Shown here in pieces: positions 21,382 to 25,430 of a DNA stretch of 38,652 bases. Location: IMG/VR virus record IMGVR_UViG_2671180727_000010; one strand, written 5' to 3'. The position numbers were made by a program, and so were the translations under genes. The stretch's first letter is position 1. Every line of letters starts with the position of its first letter. The notes beneath the pieces are model-generated. The model was given only the letters and a program-made list of their open reading frames with translations, had not been told where the DNA came from and did no database searches. The DNA comes from a virus. Its lineage: Duplodnaviria; Heunggongvirae; Uroviricota; Caudoviricetes.

Positions 21382-21566
21382 TAACGCGCTTAAAACGCGT
21401 TATATTGCGCTATAGCGTATGGTTAATCATTGGCTTTTAGTCTTGCTATGTGATCCGCGTTTATTTGTCGGCGCGGATCGGCATTTTGTGTTGTTCTGTG
21501 TCCGCTCGCGTATTATGTGCGCGTGATTTTTCACATAATCACACCACTTAATCACGTATGTGATTA
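21382..21566. promoter_or_regulatory. Cluster of distinct dyad symmetries in noncoding DNA
   Basis: TAACGCG-n7-CGCGTTA (~21382-21402); GATCCGCG-n12-CGCGGATC (~21452-21479); TTATGTG-n12-CACATAA (~21513-21538); TAATCAC-n4-GTGATTA (~21549-21566) with an extra direct TAATCAC at ~21536. Confidence 0.4.
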
Positions 21567-21689
21567 CGCTACGAAAGAAATCTGGATGTATCAGGCGACG
21601 AAAGTCATCATAATTTTCCCCGCTCGCCTGTCCGACAACCGCTGGTTGGATTCCACCAGCTTCCCGATGTTTTTTCTACATAAAGGCGA

Positions 21690-21810
21690 ATGCAGCCGTT
21701 TCCCGAAAAAATCCTGGCCGTTTCCCGTCGGCTCATGAATACGTTCCTCGCCGTTTCTGAAAATTTCCCTGCGGCAGCTGGTGGCTATAGAGAAAGGGCC
21801 GTTTCTGGCC
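21690..21810. repeat. Iteron-like direct repeats, approximately GCCGTTTC(C/T)(C/T)GAAAA, 4-5 copies
   Basis: Copies at ~21695, ~21718, ~21750, ~21798; the same family recurs at 25300-25430. Confidence 0.45.
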
Positions 21811-21820
21811 CTCTTCTCAG

Positions 21821-22303
21821 TTACACGCCATCAAGGATGTGGATGCGGTTGCTTGCGTATACATTCAGCATAAAGTTAGCGCAAAACAGTTTCCATGTGT
21901 CAACGCCAGCGGTATACGTAATGTTTTTGCATTTAATCGCATTGTTGGCGATCCGCATCCCCTGCGATACTGCTTCATCGTCGGAAAATTTGAACGACGA
22001 TTGAGTTTTAATCCAGACAGAAATCTGCGTAGCGAACTCAATCAGCTTGGACTGGCAGAATCGCCCGGAGCGCACCGGAAAGACGAACGTTCCGAACCCA
22101 GAATTTACCACATACGCTTTCTCAAATACCCGCGAGTAACGACGATTGCCAATGATGTCGCGTGCAATAATGCATTTTTCTTGTGCTGACAGTTCTACCG
22201 TCTCATTGTCGCGCCATGCACCAAGTACTCGTTTTTCAATGTCAGAGAACGTTACAGCGATATTGCCATGTGCGGGTGCGTTTACAGTAGCGATAAAATT
22301 CAT
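21821..22303 (-). CDS. Hypothetical protein (160 aa)
   Basis: ATG at 22303 preceded by AAGGAA; own promoter with the operator motif upstream. Confidence 0.55.
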   Translation of the reverse strand: MNFIATVNAPAHGNIAVTFSDIEKRVLGAWRDNETVELSAQEKCIIARDIIGNRRYSRVFEKAYVVNSGFGTFVFPVRSGRFCQSKLIEFATQISVWIKTQSSFKFSDDEAVSQGMRIANNAIKCKNITYTAGVDTWKLFCANFMLNVYASNRIHILDGV

Positions 22304-22478
22304 GATTAATTCCTTATAGTAAATAACAAATTGTTTTCTTGTTGGTGTTAATTATCGTTGTACGAATAAGGCGTCAAAGTGGAAAGTTGCGGTAGCCGGA
22401 CGGGAACAGGTGGGTTTGTCGGTTGCCTGGAGGTAAGAGGTTGGTGTTTTTAGCCTGCGGGAAACAGGATGGTCATTT

Positions 22479-22502
22479 AAGGCCACCAGCATTGGTGGCC
22501 TT
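22479..22502. repeat. Perfect hairpin AAGGCCACCA-gcat-TGGTGGCCTT
   Basis: 10-bp arms; a second copy with inverted loop (atgc) at 22950-22973; no clear U-tract. Confidence 0.5.
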
Positions 22503-22507
22503 AATCT

Positions 22508-22789
22508 TTAGTGGAGCAGACCGATGTCGATGGTATCCCCTGAATCATCCACACGGATCATCAGCATGGCAAAGGCGTTTAGTGGATAACTGGCGTGCCA
22601 TTCAGGGAAGCGGTCATCTCGCATGAAGTCGGCAATGTCGTAAACGCAGCCCTCAAAGTGGAAGAATCGCGTGCTTACCTGCTCGTCATAATCCACATGA
22701 TCCATTTCTTGCTGTTCTGTTTCCGGCAAGTCCAGCCATGATTCAAGGAATACATTTTGTGCTTTAGGGGTAATGGTGAAATCAGTCAT
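22508..22789 (-). CDS. Small strongly acidic protein (93 aa)
   Basis: Likely start MTDFTITPK (ATG at 22789, GAGGA 8 nt upstream); ~20 Asp/Glu versus ~5 Lys/Arg; own promoter and operator. Confidence 0.5.
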   Translation of the reverse strand: MTDFTITPKAQNVFLESWLDLPETEQQEMDHVDYDEQVSTRFFHFEGCVYDIADFMRDDRFPEWHASYPLNAFAMLMIRVDDSGDTIDIGLLH

Positions 22790-22949
22790 GAGCATATCCT
22801 CACTGCGTAAACATGTTGTTTTCTTGTTGGTGTAATTATCGCAGTGTAGATAAGGCATAAAAGAAGTTAATACAGGCTGAATACACAAGAAAGGTTCTGG
22901 AAGTTGATAGCCAGGTTTCAAACTAACCTTCGGTTATTAAAAGTCATTT

Positions 22950-22973
22950 AAGGCCACCAATGCTGGTGGCCTT
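22950..22973. repeat. Second copy of the AAGGCCACCA...TGGTGGCCTT hairpin (loop inverted)
   Basis: Reverse complement of the 22479-22502 hairpin including the loop; flanks are not inverted. Confidence 0.5.
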
Positions 22974-22978
22974 AATAA

Positions 22979-23122: not shown

Positions 23123-23124
23123 AT

Positions 23125-23499
23125 TTACCACCAGGCGCAGAAGGTCAGTCTGTTATTGTGAAAGTCGTGGTTCTTAATCAGATCTTCCACAAGCTCTTTC
23201 AACTGCCCCACATCATGCCAGTAACCTTCATCGTACTCCTGACTGCCGAAGAAAAAACCTTCCCGGGTAGGCAAGTACTCTTCGCAATTACTTTCGTTTA
23301 TGTGCATCAAATGAGCCTTCAGAAAACAAATGTCATTCATCGTTAATTCTAAAAGCTCACAATTTTCGACTTCACCTACGTTGCGCTCCATCCACCCAAC
23401 GAGCGCATTGAACTTACGGAAGTAAGCAACCTGCTTTCTGGATGCCTCGTTATTCAGATCGTTTTTAGGCTGCGTCTCGATATAGATATCAAGTCCCAT
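23125..23499 (-). CDS. Small acidic protein (124 aa)
   Basis: Best start is the ATG at 23499 with AAGGAA 8 nt upstream (track ORF extends to a GTG at 23541); operator at ~23558-23572. Confidence 0.5.
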   Translation of the reverse strand: MGLDIYIETQPKNDLNNEASRKQVAYFRKFNALVGWMERNVGEVENCELLELTMNDICFLKAHLMHINESNCEEYLPTREGFFFGSQEYDEGYWHDVGQLKELVEDLIKNHDFHNNRLTFCAWW

Positions 23500-23616
23500 G
23501 ATGGTTTCCTTATTAAGTTGCTTCAGTGAAATCATTTTCACAAATCAGATAAGGCAGAAAACAAATTGTTATCGGGCATAATAAAATGGCGCGGTTTACG
23601 CGCCATTTAAAGAGGA

Positions 23617-24012
23617 TTAAGCGAATACGCTTTCAGGGATTAAGGTGTCGGCAGGAATGCCAGAGGTAATGCGCAGGCCGTACTGACCAATCCAGGTAGT
23701 GTTGGTATTCAGGCTGGAGGCGAATACGGTGTTAACCATATTCATCATGGTTTCAAACACCTCTTCATCAACCTGGCGGAAGTAGTTCTCGATTTTCAGC
23801 AGCAGCGGGTCAGTTGCATCGAGAATGGACTGGTATTGAGTCGCGTACTCGCCGCCGGAGGCATCACCTTTACGCACAATCGTACTGGCCTGGACTTCGG
23901 CACCAGTTTCGGTGTTGTACGTAACAACGGTGATTTTTGCCACATTCTTACCTTCGGCGGTTTCAGAGGCATAGTAAACATCAACTGTCAGTTTTTCGCG
24001 TTTAACGGTCAT
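23617..24012 (-). CDS. Hypothetical protein (131 aa)
   Basis: ATG at 24012 with GGAGAG RBS (MTVKREKLTVDVYY...); preceded by the GTAAGTATGTACTTAC palindrome. Confidence 0.5.
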   Translation of the reverse strand: MTVKREKLTVDVYYASETAEGKNVAKITVVTYNTETGAEVQASTIVRKGDASGGEYATQYQSILDATDPLLLKIENYFRQVDEEVFETMMNMVNTVFASSLNTNTTWIGQYGLRITSGIPADTLIPESVFA

Positions 24013-24055
24013 TTCACTCTCCGTAGTGTTTTGGTTATTTTTATATTCTATGATC

Positions 24056-24071
24056 GTAAGTATGTACTTAC
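24056..24071. promoter_or_regulatory. 16-bp palindrome GTAAGTATGTACTTAC (putative operator)
   Basis: Differs from the 4239-4254 palindrome only at the central base pair. Confidence 0.45.
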
Positions 24072-24138
24072 AATACAAAAAAGCCCCGTAAGGATGGCGG
24101 GGCTGTCGTACTGTCGACTAATTACCACTTGCACATTA

Positions 24139-24450
24139 TCAGGCTATTGCCATCACTGATGCTCTCTGAATCTCTTGCTGGGCCACGCGGTTAACTTCCA
24201 TCAAAGCCAGTTCGAGCTGATGTTCCGGCCACATTCTTTGAAATGCCACCCAGCCTTTTCCACGCTGGCGACGAACATTCATTACATAACGAGTAAAGGT
24301 GTTTTTATCGAAAGACACCGCTGTTTCACGGAACAGACGAATAGAGGTTCCATTGGCAACGATGTCCAGCAAAGTTAATTGAGCAACCAGCGCAGGCTTC
24401 TCTTTTCTCTTCTGGTCTTTGTCCAGACCAAGAACCAATGATTTTTTCAT
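24139..24450 (-). CDS. Small basic protein (103 aa)
   Basis: ATG at 24450 (MKKSLVLGLDKDQKRKEK...) with GGAG upstream; operator immediately upstream of the RBS; a terminator-like hairpin (GCCCCG...CGGGGC plus T-run) follows the gene. Confidence 0.5.
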   Translation of the reverse strand: MKKSLVLGLDKDQKRKEKPALVAQLTLLDIVANGTSIRLFRETAVSFDKNTFTRYVMNVRRQRGKGWVAFQRMWPEHQLELALMEVNRVAQQEIQRASVMAIA

Positions 24451-24603
24451 CACAACTCCGTAAACAACTTGTTTTCTCAATGGCGTAAATAATACCAGTA
24501 AGAAAACGGCTACAAAGCATATTGATCAGGTGCATGAGCGATATGCAGGTTCTTCCCTGCGGCTATAGAGAAATTAAGCCAGCAATGCTGGCTTTGGTTG
24601 GGG

Positions 24604-24933
24604 TTACTCGAATACTTCAAGAAACTCCTGAACGTCCCAATGCTGGACGAGGTGAAGATAGACCTTAGAAATCACGTCATTTTCGCTATCGCATGTGAAG
24701 TAGTACTTCTGGCTGCGGTTGTATGTGTCCACACAAAATTCGCTCATATCCATAAAGTCAGCATCTTCACCCAGGTCGCTGATCATCAAAGCAGGTGCGT
24801 CATCACGAGTCATCAGCTCAAGCACCCACCGCGAATTGATCAGAGTGGAAGACCAACCTTCTAACTCATAAAACTGATCAAACTCTTTTTGAGTTAATTT
24901 CTTGATTTGGTTGATGTCGATATTTGCAAACAT
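24604..24933 (-). CDS. Small acidic protein (109 aa)
   Basis: ATG at 24933 (MFANIDINQIKK...) with AAGGA upstream; operator at ~24945-24959. Confidence 0.5.
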   Translation of the reverse strand: MFANIDINQIKKLTQKEFDQFYELEGWSSTLINSRWVLELMTRDDAPALMISDLGEDADFMDMSEFCVDTYNRSQKYYFTCDSENDVISKVYLHLVQHWDVQEFLEVFE

Positions 24934-25299
24934 AAAGCAATCCTTAAACAACTTGTTTTCTCGTTGGTGTTATTATCGCAATAACGCACAGGCTAAAAAG
25001 GATTTTATTCCGGTGAATGTTGTTTTGGCAGTGAGTTTTCAGGTTCAGTATCGAGTACACTTTTTACATTATTCTGATTTAGTGGCCGAAGATGGCTGGT
25101 GGGCAGAATAATCATCTCCCCGAAAACCTACTGAAATCGATTGTGACCCGTTGGCTGTCTGGCACAATTACGCTGTAGTTGGGCATTCAGAGGGAATCCT
25201 GCGGTAAGTAAGTTCGCCTGCACGTGAGCGCCTCTCTTCTTCCCGCACATTACAGGTGGGTAGCCGCAACTCTCCCTCACGCTATACCGGTACGCCGCC

Positions 25300-25430
25300 G
25301 TTCCTGAACCGGCATCGAGCCTTTCCCCGAAATCCACACAGGCAACTCGACCGTTTCCCTGAAAATCCCCAGCCGTTCCCCGAAGGCAACCCAGCCGTTT
25401 CAGTAGCGGGATGCAGCCTTTTCCCTGTAT
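25300..25430. repeat. Second iteron-like cluster, ~6 copies of (G)CCGTT(T)CCC(T)GAA
   Basis: Copies at ~25306, 25320, 25350, 25371, 25394, 25416; same family as 21690-21810. Confidence 0.4.

What the first reader, a model, noticed from the sequence alone, without database searches (positions are those of the whole stretch)
21382..25430. Two iteron-like clusters (GCCGTTTCCCGAAAA family) plus a dense palindrome cluster in noncoding DNA
Four to six direct copies of a ~14-bp motif occur at 21690-21810 and again at 25300-25430, each in ORF-poor DNA. The first cluster is preceded by four different dyads within 190 bp (21382-21566). Iterons next to palindromes are the classical signature of a replication origin or plasmid-type control region, and a ParB-type system would also need a centromere-like site. 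The overlapping track ORFs (21517..21738, 21690..22004, 25128..25586) look spurious.
Basis: seen in the sequence. Interest (0 to 1): 0.6.

Follow-up and report, generated by a model that had tools for sequence, protein, structure and literature searches.

The report
Conserved phased DNA-binding arrays, phage-plasmid
Two clusters of a repeated 15-base DNA word, spaced so that every copy faces the same side of the helix, are real and are conserved in every SSU5/pHCM2/pMT1-type phage-plasmid examined. They are undescribed docking sites for a DNA-binding protein, but they are not the plasmid's known replication origin.

Summary
The window is an SSU5/pHCM2-type phage-plasmid, 98% identical to Escherichia phage Cyrano. 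The motif GCCGTTTCCCGAAAA is real. There are three good copies at 21695-21764 and six at 25297-25430, all on the + strand, about 22 bp apart and in helical phase. No comparable copy occurs elsewhere in the window or in a 110-kb relative.

The fourth "copy" of cluster 1 (21798) is the terminator hairpin of gene 21821..22303. The overlapping ORFs are spurious. The dyads exist but are specific to the E. coli lineage, and two of the four look like terminators.

Both clusters keep their motif, orientation and spacing in Escherichia, Citrobacter, Enterobacter, Salmonella (pHCM2, SSU5) and Klebsiella elements and in about 70 IMG/VR contigs. Yersinia pMT1 keeps cluster 1 only. Relatives whose proteins are only 33% identical also keep arrays, one with the same core and one with a diverged motif. 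The clusters bracket a variable island of small genes.

They are not the plasmid origin. RepA lies about 35 kb away and has P1-type iterons of a different sequence.

The best candidate binder is a winged-helix protein encoded just upstream (20051..20701). Its gene precedes the array in every relative examined.

The function is unresolved: phage-mode replication origin or control (about 0.35), centromere (about 0.25) or looping regulator (about 0.2). Nothing on these repeats was found in the literature searched.

The parts
16594..18153 (+). SF2 (UvsW/ResIII-type) helicase, first gene of the + strand operon that ends at the array
   Evidence: Pfam ResIII/DEAD/Helicase_C. 67% identical in the deep relative L112, and the gene precedes the winged-helix gene in L112 and L113.
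20051..20701 (+). 216-aa protein (phrog_1513): N-terminal helical bundle plus C-terminal winged helix. Best candidate for the array-binding protein.
21209..21276 (+). Two tandem rho-independent terminators ending the + strand operon (21209-21229, 21255-21276)
   Evidence: Terminator scan. Stems are invariant in six relatives.
21382..21566 (.). Four dyads (21382-21402, 21451-21480, 21507-21523, 21536-21566), specific to the E. coli lineage
   Evidence: Not conserved in position or sequence in Citrobacter, Enterobacter, pHCM2, Klebsiella or pMT1.
21695..21764 (+). Array 1: three copies of GCCGTTTC(C/T)(C/G)..AAAA at 21695, 21717 and 21750 (spacing 22, 33)
   Evidence: Copies 1 and 2 are invariant in all six relatives aligned, and copy 3 is kept in five. 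The same spacing recurs in ~70 contigs.
21761..21784 (+). Nearly invariant block AATTTCCCTGCGGCAGCTGGTGG: a half-site (TTTCCCTG) followed by a Chi octamer at 21777-21784
21796..21811 (-).
   Evidence: The GGGCC/GGCCC stem becomes GGGGC/GCCCC in relatives.
21821..22303 (-). 160-aa protein (phrog_1641), next to array 1 in the SSU5 group and in L102, but not recognisable next to the array in L112
22304..24985 (-). Variable island of small genes between the arrays. Most have their own conserved promoter/operator-like element, and several have their own terminator.
   Evidence: PHROGs of unknown function, no Pfam family. Gene content differs among relatives and the inter-array distance ranges from 1.5 to 5.3 kb. 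Repeat families D1/D3.
25113..25127 (+). Degenerate outlying copy ATCTCCCCGAAAACC, with a Chi octamer just upstream at 25095-25102
   Evidence: The block is conserved in E. coli, Citrobacter and Klebsiella.
25297..25430 (+). Array 2: six copies at 25297, 25319, 25350, 25372, 25394 and 25416 (spacing 22, 31, 22, 22, 22)
   Evidence: Conserved copy by copy in relatives.
25491..25517 (-). Terminator-like hairpin just upstream (in minus-strand sense) of array 2
   Evidence: The hairpin is not clearly kept in other lineages.
25600..26360 (.). Conserved noncoding stretch with strong strand asymmetry (+ strand G/T-rich, minus strand 39% A, 31% C, 13.5% G). It holds further repeat families: GTATGGAGTAATGGC at 25755, 25845 and 26093, and a 31-bp tandem CGGTAGCCTG..AGAGGTGGGT at 26033 and 26064.
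   Evidence: The same layout follows array 2 in the deep relative L112.

Best explanation
Shown. The two clusters are arrays of an asymmetric ~15-bp site. All copies have the same orientation and lie about two helical turns apart, so bound protein would sit on one face of the DNA. The arrays lie in untranslated DNA, each immediately downstream (in minus-strand sense) of a terminator or terminator-like hairpin. They are conserved in motif, order, spacing and orientation across the SSU5/pHCM2 phage-plasmids examined (pMT1 keeps cluster 1 only) and recur, with the same or a diverged motif, in two much deeper relatives. They bracket a variable island of small genes.

Inferred. The sites are bound cooperatively, about 3 plus 6 protomers, by an element-encoded protein. 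The best candidate is the winged-helix protein encoded just upstream (20051..20701).

Committed guess. The two complexes form the cis-acting part of a RepA-independent, phage-mode replication origin or its control region. This would be analogous to the bipartite ori/crr of P4 or the oriR/incA pairing of P1. The element carries its own replisome (DnaB-like helicase, primase, Pol III alpha) but has no annotated lytic initiator or origin. The SF2 helicase and winged-helix genes would then be the trans-acting part of this module.
For: Reality and constraint:
- Enrichment and uniqueness in the window and in the 110-kb genome.
- Helical phasing.
- Copy-by-copy conservation against a ~66-70% identical noncoding background.
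- The same two-array layout in ~70 IMG/VR contigs, with inter-array distance 1.5-4.2 kb, in phage SSU5 itself, and in L112, where proteins are 33-67% identical.

Not RNA and not coding.

Link to the winged-helix protein:
- The gene is upstream of array 1 in all relatives examined. In L113 the operon is reduced to helicase plus winged-helix gene plus array.
- Winged-helix fold.
- In the two pairwise alignments the stretch YTQANQLINLCERLGLVE, the predicted helix 168-179 that I take to be the recognition helix, is among the best-conserved parts at 33% overall identity. The DNA core CCGTTTCC is kept as well.

Replication reading:
- The phage replisome genes have no known initiator or origin.
- Array 2 adjoins a ~1.2-kb conserved noncoding region with several more repeat families, promoter-like elements and an 80% AT stretch at 26358-26400.
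- Gene order helicase, then DNA binder, then iterons downstream resembles known phage and satellite replication modules (general knowledge).
Against: - No AT-rich unwinding element or DnaA box directly adjoins either array. Array 2 sits in the most GC-rich part of the region.
- Cumulative GC skew of the whole plasmid switches only at repA and not at the arrays, although it is dominated by gene orientation.
- The replisome genes are ~40 kb away.
- The helicase is SF2 (UvsW-like), not a replicative type.
- The copies in array 2 are more degenerate than typical origin iterons.
- Binding by the winged-helix protein is inferred from synteny and fold only.
- Both arrays survive in 52- and 62-kb deletion plasmids that have lost the phage structural genes. 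These may be too recent to be informative.
Confidence: 0.35

Rival explanations
1. Partition centromere. The arrays are the missing centromere-like sites of the element's type Ib partition system (222-aa ParA plus 117-aa RHH-like partner, encoded ~40 kb away). Alternatively they belong to a motor-less system in which the winged-helix protein itself is the centromere binder. Bound arrays would form partition complexes that segregate prophage copies.
For: - The ParA/RHH operon has no repeat array upstream or downstream in two lineages.
- A k-mer scan of the 110-kb genome finds no other intergenic multi-copy array of comparable density apart from the RepA iterons.
- The arrays sit in transcriptionally insulated DNA.
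- The RHH partner and the array-2 region have the same host distribution and both are absent from Yersinia pMT1, which by general knowledge uses a P1-type ParABS.
- Both arrays, or array 1 plus the rest of array 2, are retained in 52- and 62-kb deletion plasmids that have lost the phage structural genes.
Against: - Type Ib centromeres normally lie at the par promoter and double as its operator. No motif copy is present there.
- RHH proteins usually read 4-11-bp repeats, not a 15-bp site at 22-bp pitch (general knowledge).
- pMT1 keeps array 1 and the winged-helix gene intact without the type Ib system.
- The sites in array 2 are degenerate and position-specific.
Confidence: 0.25
2. Looping regulator or insulator. 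A multimeric winged-helix regulator binds both arrays and loops out the 1.5-5 kb island, as lambda CI does with OL-OR or 186 CI with its flanking sites. This would silence or insulate the small accessory genes, or block read-through from the convergent operons.
For: - The arrays precisely bracket a discrete, variable set of transcription units, whatever the size of the island.
- Each array follows a terminator or terminator-like hairpin.
- The sites have graded, position-specific sequences, like operators of different affinity.
- The candidate protein has a large helical oligomerisation-like domain plus a MarR/ArsR-like winged helix.
Against: - The arrays do not overlap any promoter.
- Most island genes already carry their own conserved operator-like element, AGAAAACAAnnTGTTT.
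- The same direct orientation and the deep conservation of the adjoining 1.2-kb noncoding region are not explained by this model.
Confidence: 0.2
3. Packaging or injection signal: binding sites for the small terminase, or for the ParB_N proteins encoded next to the terminase genes, or a stop/pause signal for DNA entry.
For: - Repeated asymmetric sites occur in cosB and pac regions (general knowledge).
- The arrays lie 9-13 kb from terL (11254..12510), and two ParB_N genes and an ABC ATPase lie between.
- This whole block is syntenic in deep relatives.
Against: - Packaging sites normally lie at or in the small terminase gene.
- Two arrays several kb apart have no precedent there.
- The SSU5 and Cyrano records start near the terminase genes, not here.
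Confidence: 0.05
4. No function: chance repeats, part of a protein-coding frame, or a structured RNA.
For: ORFs overlap both clusters. Short stems such as GCCG...CGGC occur in some copies.
Against: - 0 of 100 shuffles reach the observed count.
- Relatives have frameshifts, and in-frame stops in all or most of them.
- No Rfam family reaches threshold.
- The covariation term is unfavourable in RNAalifold for both clusters.
- The motif, spacing and orientation are conserved at 33% protein identity.
Confidence: 0.02

Closest known systems
P1/RepFIB-type replicon (oriR iterons - repA - incA iterons), from general knowledge. This element carries a copy of that replicon elsewhere.
   Same: Direct repeats at ~21-22-bp pitch in two clusters of the same orientation that flank coding DNA. 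A pairing ('handcuffing') logic is possible.
   Different: - The real RepA replicon is ~35 kb away and its iterons have a different sequence.
- No Rep_3 protein, DnaA boxes or GATC repeats are found here.
- The clusters flank 1.5-5 kb of variable accessory genes, not an initiator gene.
Bipartite phage origins: P4 ori + crr (4.5 kb apart, same iterons, bound by the alpha protein) and SPP1 oriL/oriR (bound by G38P). Recalled from general knowledge.
   Same: Two clusters of one short asymmetric repeat lie kilobases apart on a phage genome and would be recognised by one phage protein.
   Different: - No primase-helicase or known initiator is adjacent.
- The candidate binder belongs to a tiny winged-helix family found almost only in this phage-plasmid group (23 representatives among 1.8 billion proteins).
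- Replication activity is untested.
Repeat-type plasmid centromeres: R1 parC, pB171 parC1/parC2, pBtoxis tubC/TubR, pSK1 Par, and the dispersed N15 centromeres. Recalled from general knowledge.
   Same: Arrays of phased direct repeats in quiet DNA, sometimes as two clusters. Binders are small RHH or winged-helix proteins. The host element is a low-copy prophage-plasmid with an 'orphan' ParA/RHH pair.
   Different: - The arrays are not next to the par operon and are absent from its promoter.
- The 15-bp site at 22-bp pitch is unusual for RHH binders.
- No TubZ- or ParM-type motor is present.
Looped operator sets of temperate phages: lambda OL/OR, and 186 pR with FL/FR. Recalled from general knowledge.
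   Same: Clusters of 3 or more sites at ~2-turn spacing lie kilobases apart and bracket a gene block.
   Different: Those operators are (pseudo)palindromic and overlap promoters. These sites are asymmetric direct repeats outside promoters.

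Membership tests
Iteron-type (Rep_3/RepA) plasmid origin | Tandem direct repeats of ~17-22 bp at ~22-bp pitch | tested here: met
   Spacings 22/33 and 22/31/22/22/22, phase resultant 0.96-0.97 at 10.8 bp.
Iteron-type (Rep_3/RepA) plasmid origin | Cognate Rep initiator gene adjacent, whose iterons these are | tested here: not met
   The only Rep_3 protein is ~35 kb away, and its iterons (CCACTATAGAGAG) differ. The neighbouring genes have no Rep domain.
Iteron-type (Rep_3/RepA) plasmid origin | AT-rich unwinding element and DnaA boxes next to the iterons | tested here: not met
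   No DnaA box (one mismatch allowed) in 21205-21820 or 24952-26497. The nearest AT-rich 40-mers are at 21275 and 26358, hundreds of bp from the arrays.
Iteron-type (Rep_3/RepA) plasmid origin | Supports autonomous replication; exerts incompatibility | not testable with these tools
   Needs a cloning or incompatibility experiment.
ParABS centromere (ParB_N/CTPase type parS) | Palindromic ~16-bp site(s) bound by a ParB_N-HTH protein, usually next to parAB | tested here: not met
   The motif is asymmetric and directly repeated. The dyads in 21382-21566 are not conserved. The two ParB_N genes (15163..16529) sit in the terminase-proximal block with no ParA.
Repeat-type centromere of type Ib/II/III partition systems | Array of phased direct repeats bound by a small RHH or winged-helix protein | tested here: inconclusive
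   Arrays are present. An RHH-like 117-aa partner of a 222-aa ParA exists, as does a winged-helix protein. Binding is untested.
Repeat-type centromere of type Ib/II/III partition systems | Centromere adjacent to, and operator of, the par operon | tested here: not met
   No motif copy within ~250 bp upstream (E. coli; ~210 bp in Cronobacter) of parA in either lineage, nor within ~100 bp downstream of the RHH gene in E. coli. The arrays are ~38-42 kb from the operon.
Bipartite phage origin (P4 ori/crr type) | Two clusters of the same iteron kilobases apart | tested here: met
   Same motif and orientation, 1.5-5.3 kb apart in all relatives that span both sites.
Bipartite phage origin (P4 ori/crr type) | Both clusters required in cis and bound by the phage initiator | not testable with these tools
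   Needs replication assays and ChIP or EMSA.
Rho-independent terminators (for the dyads and the '4th copy') | GC-rich stem-loop followed by a T-run at the end of a transcription unit, with the stem kept by compensatory change | tested here: met
   21209-21229, 21255-21276 and 21796-21811 (minus strand). 21451-21480 and 21507-21523 fit the pattern but are not conserved.
Structured RNA / known RNA family | Rfam match or covarying base pairs | tested here: not met
   No hit reaches a gathering score. RNAalifold covariation terms are +0.84 and +1.25 kcal/mol, i.e. penalties.
Protein-coding sequence | Reading frame kept in homologues | tested here: not met
   Frameshifting indels, plus in-frame stops in all or most relatives, for all overlapping ORFs. 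The two ORFs that were scanned have no PHROG or Pfam family.

The most novel reading that the evidence does not exclude
The arrays, the winged-helix protein (a family of 23 representatives among 1.8 billion proteins) and the adjoining 1.2-kb strand-skewed noncoding region together form a previously unrecognised maintenance module of SSU5/pHCM2/pMT1-type phage-plasmids. It would be either the long-missing lytic origin with a new initiator family, organised as two iteron clusters that pair across an accessory-gene island, or a motor-independent winged-helix centromere system.
Probability: 0.3. Interest if true: 0.7.

Novelty: new variant of a known kind. Interest (0 to 1): 0.5.

Why it matters
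SSU5-type phage-plasmids include pHCM2 of S. Typhi, pMT1 of Y. pestis and hundreds of E. coli, Klebsiella and Enterobacter plasmids; more than 700 PLSDB records match this region. For this group only the RepA replicon is annotated. No lytic origin, no centromere for the type Ib ParA and no master operator set turned up in the literature searches run here.

A cis-element that is better conserved than most of the proteins is a concrete, clonable candidate for one of these missing functions. So is its syntenic winged-helix gene. Either would also be a handle for curing, for incompatibility tests or for engineering these elements.

Tried and rejected
- Rfam scan of 20500-27500: only sub-threshold hits.
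- RNAalifold on both clusters: no covariation.
- Coding test of the overlapping ORFs: frames are broken in relatives.
- DnaA boxes: none in the noncoding regions.
- Whole-plasmid cumulative GC skew: a single switch at repA and nothing at the arrays.
- Tandem Repeats Finder: finds the RepA iterons but is too strict for these degenerate arrays.
- 160-aa neighbour (phrog_1641) as the binder: confident model but no fold match, and no recognisable homologue next to the array in L112. Set aside.
- 396-aa / 244-aa genes on the far side of the noncoding region: non-homologous replacements between lineages while the arrays stay the same. Rejected as the binder.
- Comparison with the RepA iterons: different sequence. 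Three CTATAGAGA 9-mers nearby resemble the RepA iteron core but occur only in the E. coli lineage.
- Transposon-end reading (Tn7- or Mu-like multi-site ends): rejected because the two clusters are direct, not inverted.
- Literature searches on SSU5, pHCM2 and pMT1 with iterons, origin, centromere or packaging: nothing on these repeats. One 2026 preprint on repA in an SSU5-type element and the SSU5 genome announcement could not be opened.
- Co-variation test between the arrays and ParA/RHH versus the winged-helix protein in the divergent Cronobacter group: all three proteins are ~62-67% identical and the motif is unchanged, so the test does not discriminate.

Full report
WHAT THE WINDOW IS

The region 21200-25700 is 98.3% identical over its full length to Escherichia phage Cyrano. 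It matches 732 PLSDB plasmids of Escherichia, Klebsiella, Enterobacter, Yersinia, Salmonella and Citrobacter, nearly all non-mobilizable IncFIB. The window is therefore part of an SSU5/pHCM2/pMT1-type phage-plasmid.

Gene content fits this assignment:
- terminase large subunit at 11254..12510;
- an ABC-type ATPase and two ParB_N-domain proteins at 14501..16529;
- an SF2 helicase at 16594..18153;
- a FljA-like repressor;
- metG, an apbC/ParA-fold gene and an S24 peptidase.

THE OBSERVATION

The motif is real. GCCKTTYCY occurs 11 times against 2.5 +/- 1.5 in shuffles, and no shuffle reaches 11. Eight of the 11 lie in two ~120-bp stretches, all on the + strand.

Array 1 has copies at 21695, 21717 and 21750. 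Array 2 has copies at 25297, 25319, 25350, 25372, 25394 and 25416. Spacings are 22 and 33 bp in array 1, and 22, 31, 22, 22 and 22 bp in array 2. This is in phase with a ~10.8-bp helical repeat: the resultant is 0.96-0.97, and 0.025% of random placements of six sites do as well.

A matrix built from the copies finds no comparable site elsewhere in the window. It finds none in the 110-kb relative pGD31-F25 either, scanned except ~2.9 kb inside the tape-measure gene that was not fetched.

In other lineages the stem changes from GGGCC/GGCCC to GGGGC/GCCCC, so the hairpin survives and the motif does not.

The four dyads at 21382-21566 exist. 21451-21480 and 21507-21523 look like + strand terminators. 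None of the four is conserved in position or sequence in relatives. The conserved dyads are two tandem terminators at 21209-21229 and 21255-21276.

The overlapping ORFs are spurious. They carry frameshifting indels in relatives, and in-frame stops in all or most of them. The two that were scanned (25128..25586 and 26022..26378) have no PHROG or Pfam family. PGAP leaves a 1.55-kb gap in the 24952-26497 region.

CONSERVATION

Both noncoding regions are alignable at ~66-75% identity across the family. Within that background the motif copies stand out:
- Copies 1 and 2 of array 1 are invariant in Citrobacter, Enterobacter, pHCM2 (S. Typhi), Klebsiella and Y. pestis pMT1.
- The individual, slightly different copies of array 2 are each conserved in place in most lineages and are weaker in Klebsiella.

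A scan of IMG/VR with CCGTTTCCC-N11-15-CCGTTTCCC returned about 70 SSU5-like contigs. Every contig that spans both sites has two arrays in the same orientation. The spacing patterns recur (22/33-34 for array 1; 22/31/22/22/22 with 44 or 53 variants for array 2), while the distance between the arrays varies from 1.5 to 4.2 kb. Phage SSU5 itself has both arrays. pMT1 has lost array 2 through a large IS1541-associated rearrangement but keeps array 1.

A divergent Cronobacter/Enterobacter group keeps the motif with 24-bp spacing.

Through the neighbouring winged-helix protein I reached two much deeper relatives.
- L112 (54% GC) has a helicase 67% identical and a winged-helix protein 33% identical. 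It carries CCCGTTTCC five times in the same intergenic position. It also carries a second array followed by a G/T-rich noncoding stretch with the same GCCTGG..GAGGTGGGT repeats.
- L113 (34% GC) has recognisably related but diverged copies.

So the cis-architecture persists where the syntenic winged-helix protein has drifted to 33% identity (the helicase is still 67% identical). This is strong evidence of function at the DNA level. RNA readings fail: there is no Rfam family and no covariation.

WHAT IT IS NOT

It is not the plasmid origin. In pGD31-F25, RepA (Rep_3 WH1/WH2) is at 1-1056, ~35 kb from the arrays. It is flanked by DnaA boxes, AGATCC repeats and 21-bp iterons (A/T)CCACTATAGAGAG on both sides, which is the P1 oriR-repA-incA layout.

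Neither array has DnaA boxes or an adjoining AT-rich element. The cumulative GC skew of the whole plasmid switches only at repA.

Nothing ties the arrays to the two ParB_N proteins. The motif is asymmetric, and the only palindromes nearby are not conserved.

CONTEXT

Array 1 sits at the convergence of two transcription units. One is the + strand operon, which runs from the helicase to the 216-aa gene and two further small genes. The other is the minus-strand gene series.

Between the arrays lies a variable island of small genes. All belong to PHROGs of unknown function, and one is a very acidic 94-aa protein. Most carry their own copy of a promoter/operator-like element, GATAAT..CACCAAC(A/G)AGAAAACAAnnTGTTT, and several carry their own terminator.

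In one 62-kb derivative a toxin-antitoxin pair sits inside the island.

Array 2 is the first part of a 1.5-kb conserved noncoding region (24952-26497). The rest of that region has:
- strong strand asymmetry (minus strand 39% A, 31% C, 13.5% G);
- at least two more repeat families;
- promoter-like elements;
- an AT-rich end.

WHO BINDS

The gene next to array 1 (160 aa, phrog_1641) gives a confident model with no fold match. No recognisable homologue of it lies next to the array in L112.

The genes on the far side of the noncoding region are non-homologous between lineages.

The 216-aa protein (phrog_1513, 20051..20701) is the best candidate, for four reasons:
- Its gene precedes array 1 in every relative examined, and in L113 it is the only gene between the helicase and the array.
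- At 33% overall identity, the stretch YTQANQLINLCERLGLVE, the predicted helix 168-179 that I take to be the recognition helix, is among the best-conserved parts of the protein, in parallel with the conserved DNA core.
- The family is tiny, with 23 representatives in 1.8 billion proteins.

All of this is inference from synteny and fold. No binding was tested.

FUNCTION

Three readings remain.

(a) Phage-mode origin or replication control (my choice, ~0.35).
- For: the element encodes a DnaB-like helicase, a primase, Pol III alpha and a ligase but has no annotated lytic initiator or origin. The order helicase, DNA binder, downstream iterons resembles phage and satellite replication modules. Two clusters of one iteron kilobases apart recall P4 ori/crr and SPP1 oriL/oriR. 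Array 2 adjoins a complex multi-repeat noncoding region.
- Against: there is no adjacent unwinding element, no skew signal, and the array is GC-rich and degenerate.

(b) Centromere (~0.25).
- For: the type Ib ParA (222 aa) and its RHH-like partner (117 aa) have no repeats at their operon in two lineages. No other intergenic array of comparable density exists in the genome apart from the RepA iterons. The RHH protein and array 2 share a host distribution that excludes Yersinia.
- Against: the arrays are ~40 kb from the operon and absent from its promoter. The site geometry is atypical for RHH binders. pMT1 keeps array 1 and the winged-helix gene without that system.

(c) Looping regulator or insulator of the island (~0.2).
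- For: the arrays bracket the island whatever its size, and their sites are graded.
- Against: the arrays overlap no promoter, and most island genes already carry their own operator-like element.

A packaging or injection role is unlikely (~0.05). Chance, coding and RNA readings are excluded for practical purposes.

COMPARISON AND NOVELTY

Functionally this behaves like an iteron or centromere array. It fails the membership tests for a RepA-type origin: there is no adjacent Rep, DnaA box or unwinding element. It also fails the tests for a ParB-type parS, which would be palindromic.

It resembles bipartite phage origins and repeat-type centromeres without meeting any testable defining feature beyond the repeats themselves.

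I found no description of these repeats in the searchable literature. I rate it a new variant of a known kind: conserved, phased, paired binding-site arrays with a candidate new winged-helix binder, function undetermined.

Interest is moderate (0.5). That rating rests on the clinical reach of the family and on how directly the question can be tested.

Noticed in passing
window 22325, 22810, 23557, 24463, 24947, 26354, 27756, 27804; about 20 sites in pGD31-F25 (L003-L005): A conserved promoter/operator-like element, [GATAAT/TAATTA]-ACACCAAC(A/G)AGAAAACAAnnTGTTT with palindromic core AACAAnTTGTT, lies 15-25 nt upstream of the start codons of many minus-strand genes. These include the island genes, the type Ib parA, the DnaB-like helicase and an SPFH gene. 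It could be the operator of a global repressor or a shared 5'-UTR signal.
   Followed up: partly
window 25600-26360 (noncoding region 24952-26497): About 760 bp of conserved noncoding DNA with extreme strand asymmetry: minus strand A 39%, C 31%, G 13.5%, with a C/G ratio of 2-6 that puts it in the top 1% of the window. A minus-strand transcript from the promoter-like element at ~26365 would be a long C-rich, G-poor (rut-like) untranslated RNA ending at a hairpin at 25491-25517. The same feature follows array 2 in relatives, including L112.
   Followed up: partly
window 25755-25772, 25845-25862, 26093-26110; 26033-26098 and 22387-22480: Two further repeat families: GTATGGAGTAATGGC (3-4 copies, ~90-250 bp apart) and a 30/31-bp tandem unit CGGTAGCCTG..AGAGGTGGGT. 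The latter occurs both in the large noncoding region and upstream of the promoter of gene 21821..22303. Both are conserved across the family. The piece 26036-26491 also occurs at 67% identity in large Klebsiella plasmids (190-260 kb) that match no other part of the 1.5-kb query (H53-H57).
   Followed up: partly
window 21777, 22962, 25095 (+ strand); 21653, 22483 (- strand): Five Chi octamers (GCTGGTGG) lie within 3.5 kb, out of 11 in the window. The one at 21777 is kept in all aligned SSU5-group relatives and directly follows array 1. Two others are built into the loops and stems of the paired terminators at 22477-22504 and 22948-22975.
   Followed up: no
window 21785 (+), 24563 (+), 25589 (-): Three CTATAGAGA 9-mers (~0.3 expected in the window) resemble the core of the element's own RepA iterons (CCACTATAGAGAG). 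The copy at 25589 matches 13 of 15 positions. The 21785 copy is not kept in the non-E. coli relatives aligned; the 25589 copy is kept in PhiR41_1 but not in the other lineages; 24563 was not compared.
   Followed up: partly
window 18852..19454 (+): A FljA-like 'repressor of phase-1 flagellin' (PF03614, E 2.5e-84) is encoded on the phage-plasmid. It is annotated only as 'transcriptional regulator' in most records and could affect host flagellin expression.
   Followed up: no
window 27903..30065 (-) and 30094..31194 (+): The element carries a full-length methionyl-tRNA synthetase (metG, with a tRNA-binding C-terminal domain) and an ApbC/Mrp-type P-loop NTPase. The latter is annotated 'MinD' in Cyrano but is not a partition ParA.
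   Followed up: no
window 14501..16529 (-): A block of an ABC-type ATPase plus two paralogous ParB_N-domain proteins sits between the terminase genes and the helicase operon. It is syntenic even in the deep relatives L112 and L113. Its function is unknown; it is probably related to packaging or DNA handling rather than plasmid partition.
   Followed up: no
window 22508..22792 (-): A very acidic 94-aa protein (misannotated 'ABC transporter' in several records) lies within the island. Its composition is reminiscent of DNA-mimic anti-restriction proteins. The island as a whole looks like a hot spot for small accessory, possibly anti-defence, genes.
   Followed up: no
L109 (CP057437, 52 kb) and L110 (CP043243, 62 kb): These are natural deletion derivatives that have lost the phage structural genes. 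They keep repA, ParA/RHH, the helicase-to-winged-helix operon and the arrays. In CP057437, IS100 is inserted inside array 2. In CP043243, a RelE/ParE toxin-antitoxin pair sits between the arrays.
   Followed up: partly
window 21607-21634 (-) and 21536-21566: A promoter-like site (CGGACA-16-TATGAT) points leftward into the intergenic region. It is followed by the TAATCACA/TGTGATTA dyads and the bidirectional terminators, so a ~350-nt antisense or small RNA is possible in the E. coli lineage only. A weak, sub-threshold Rfam Hrs1 hit lies at 21217-21283.
   Followed up: no
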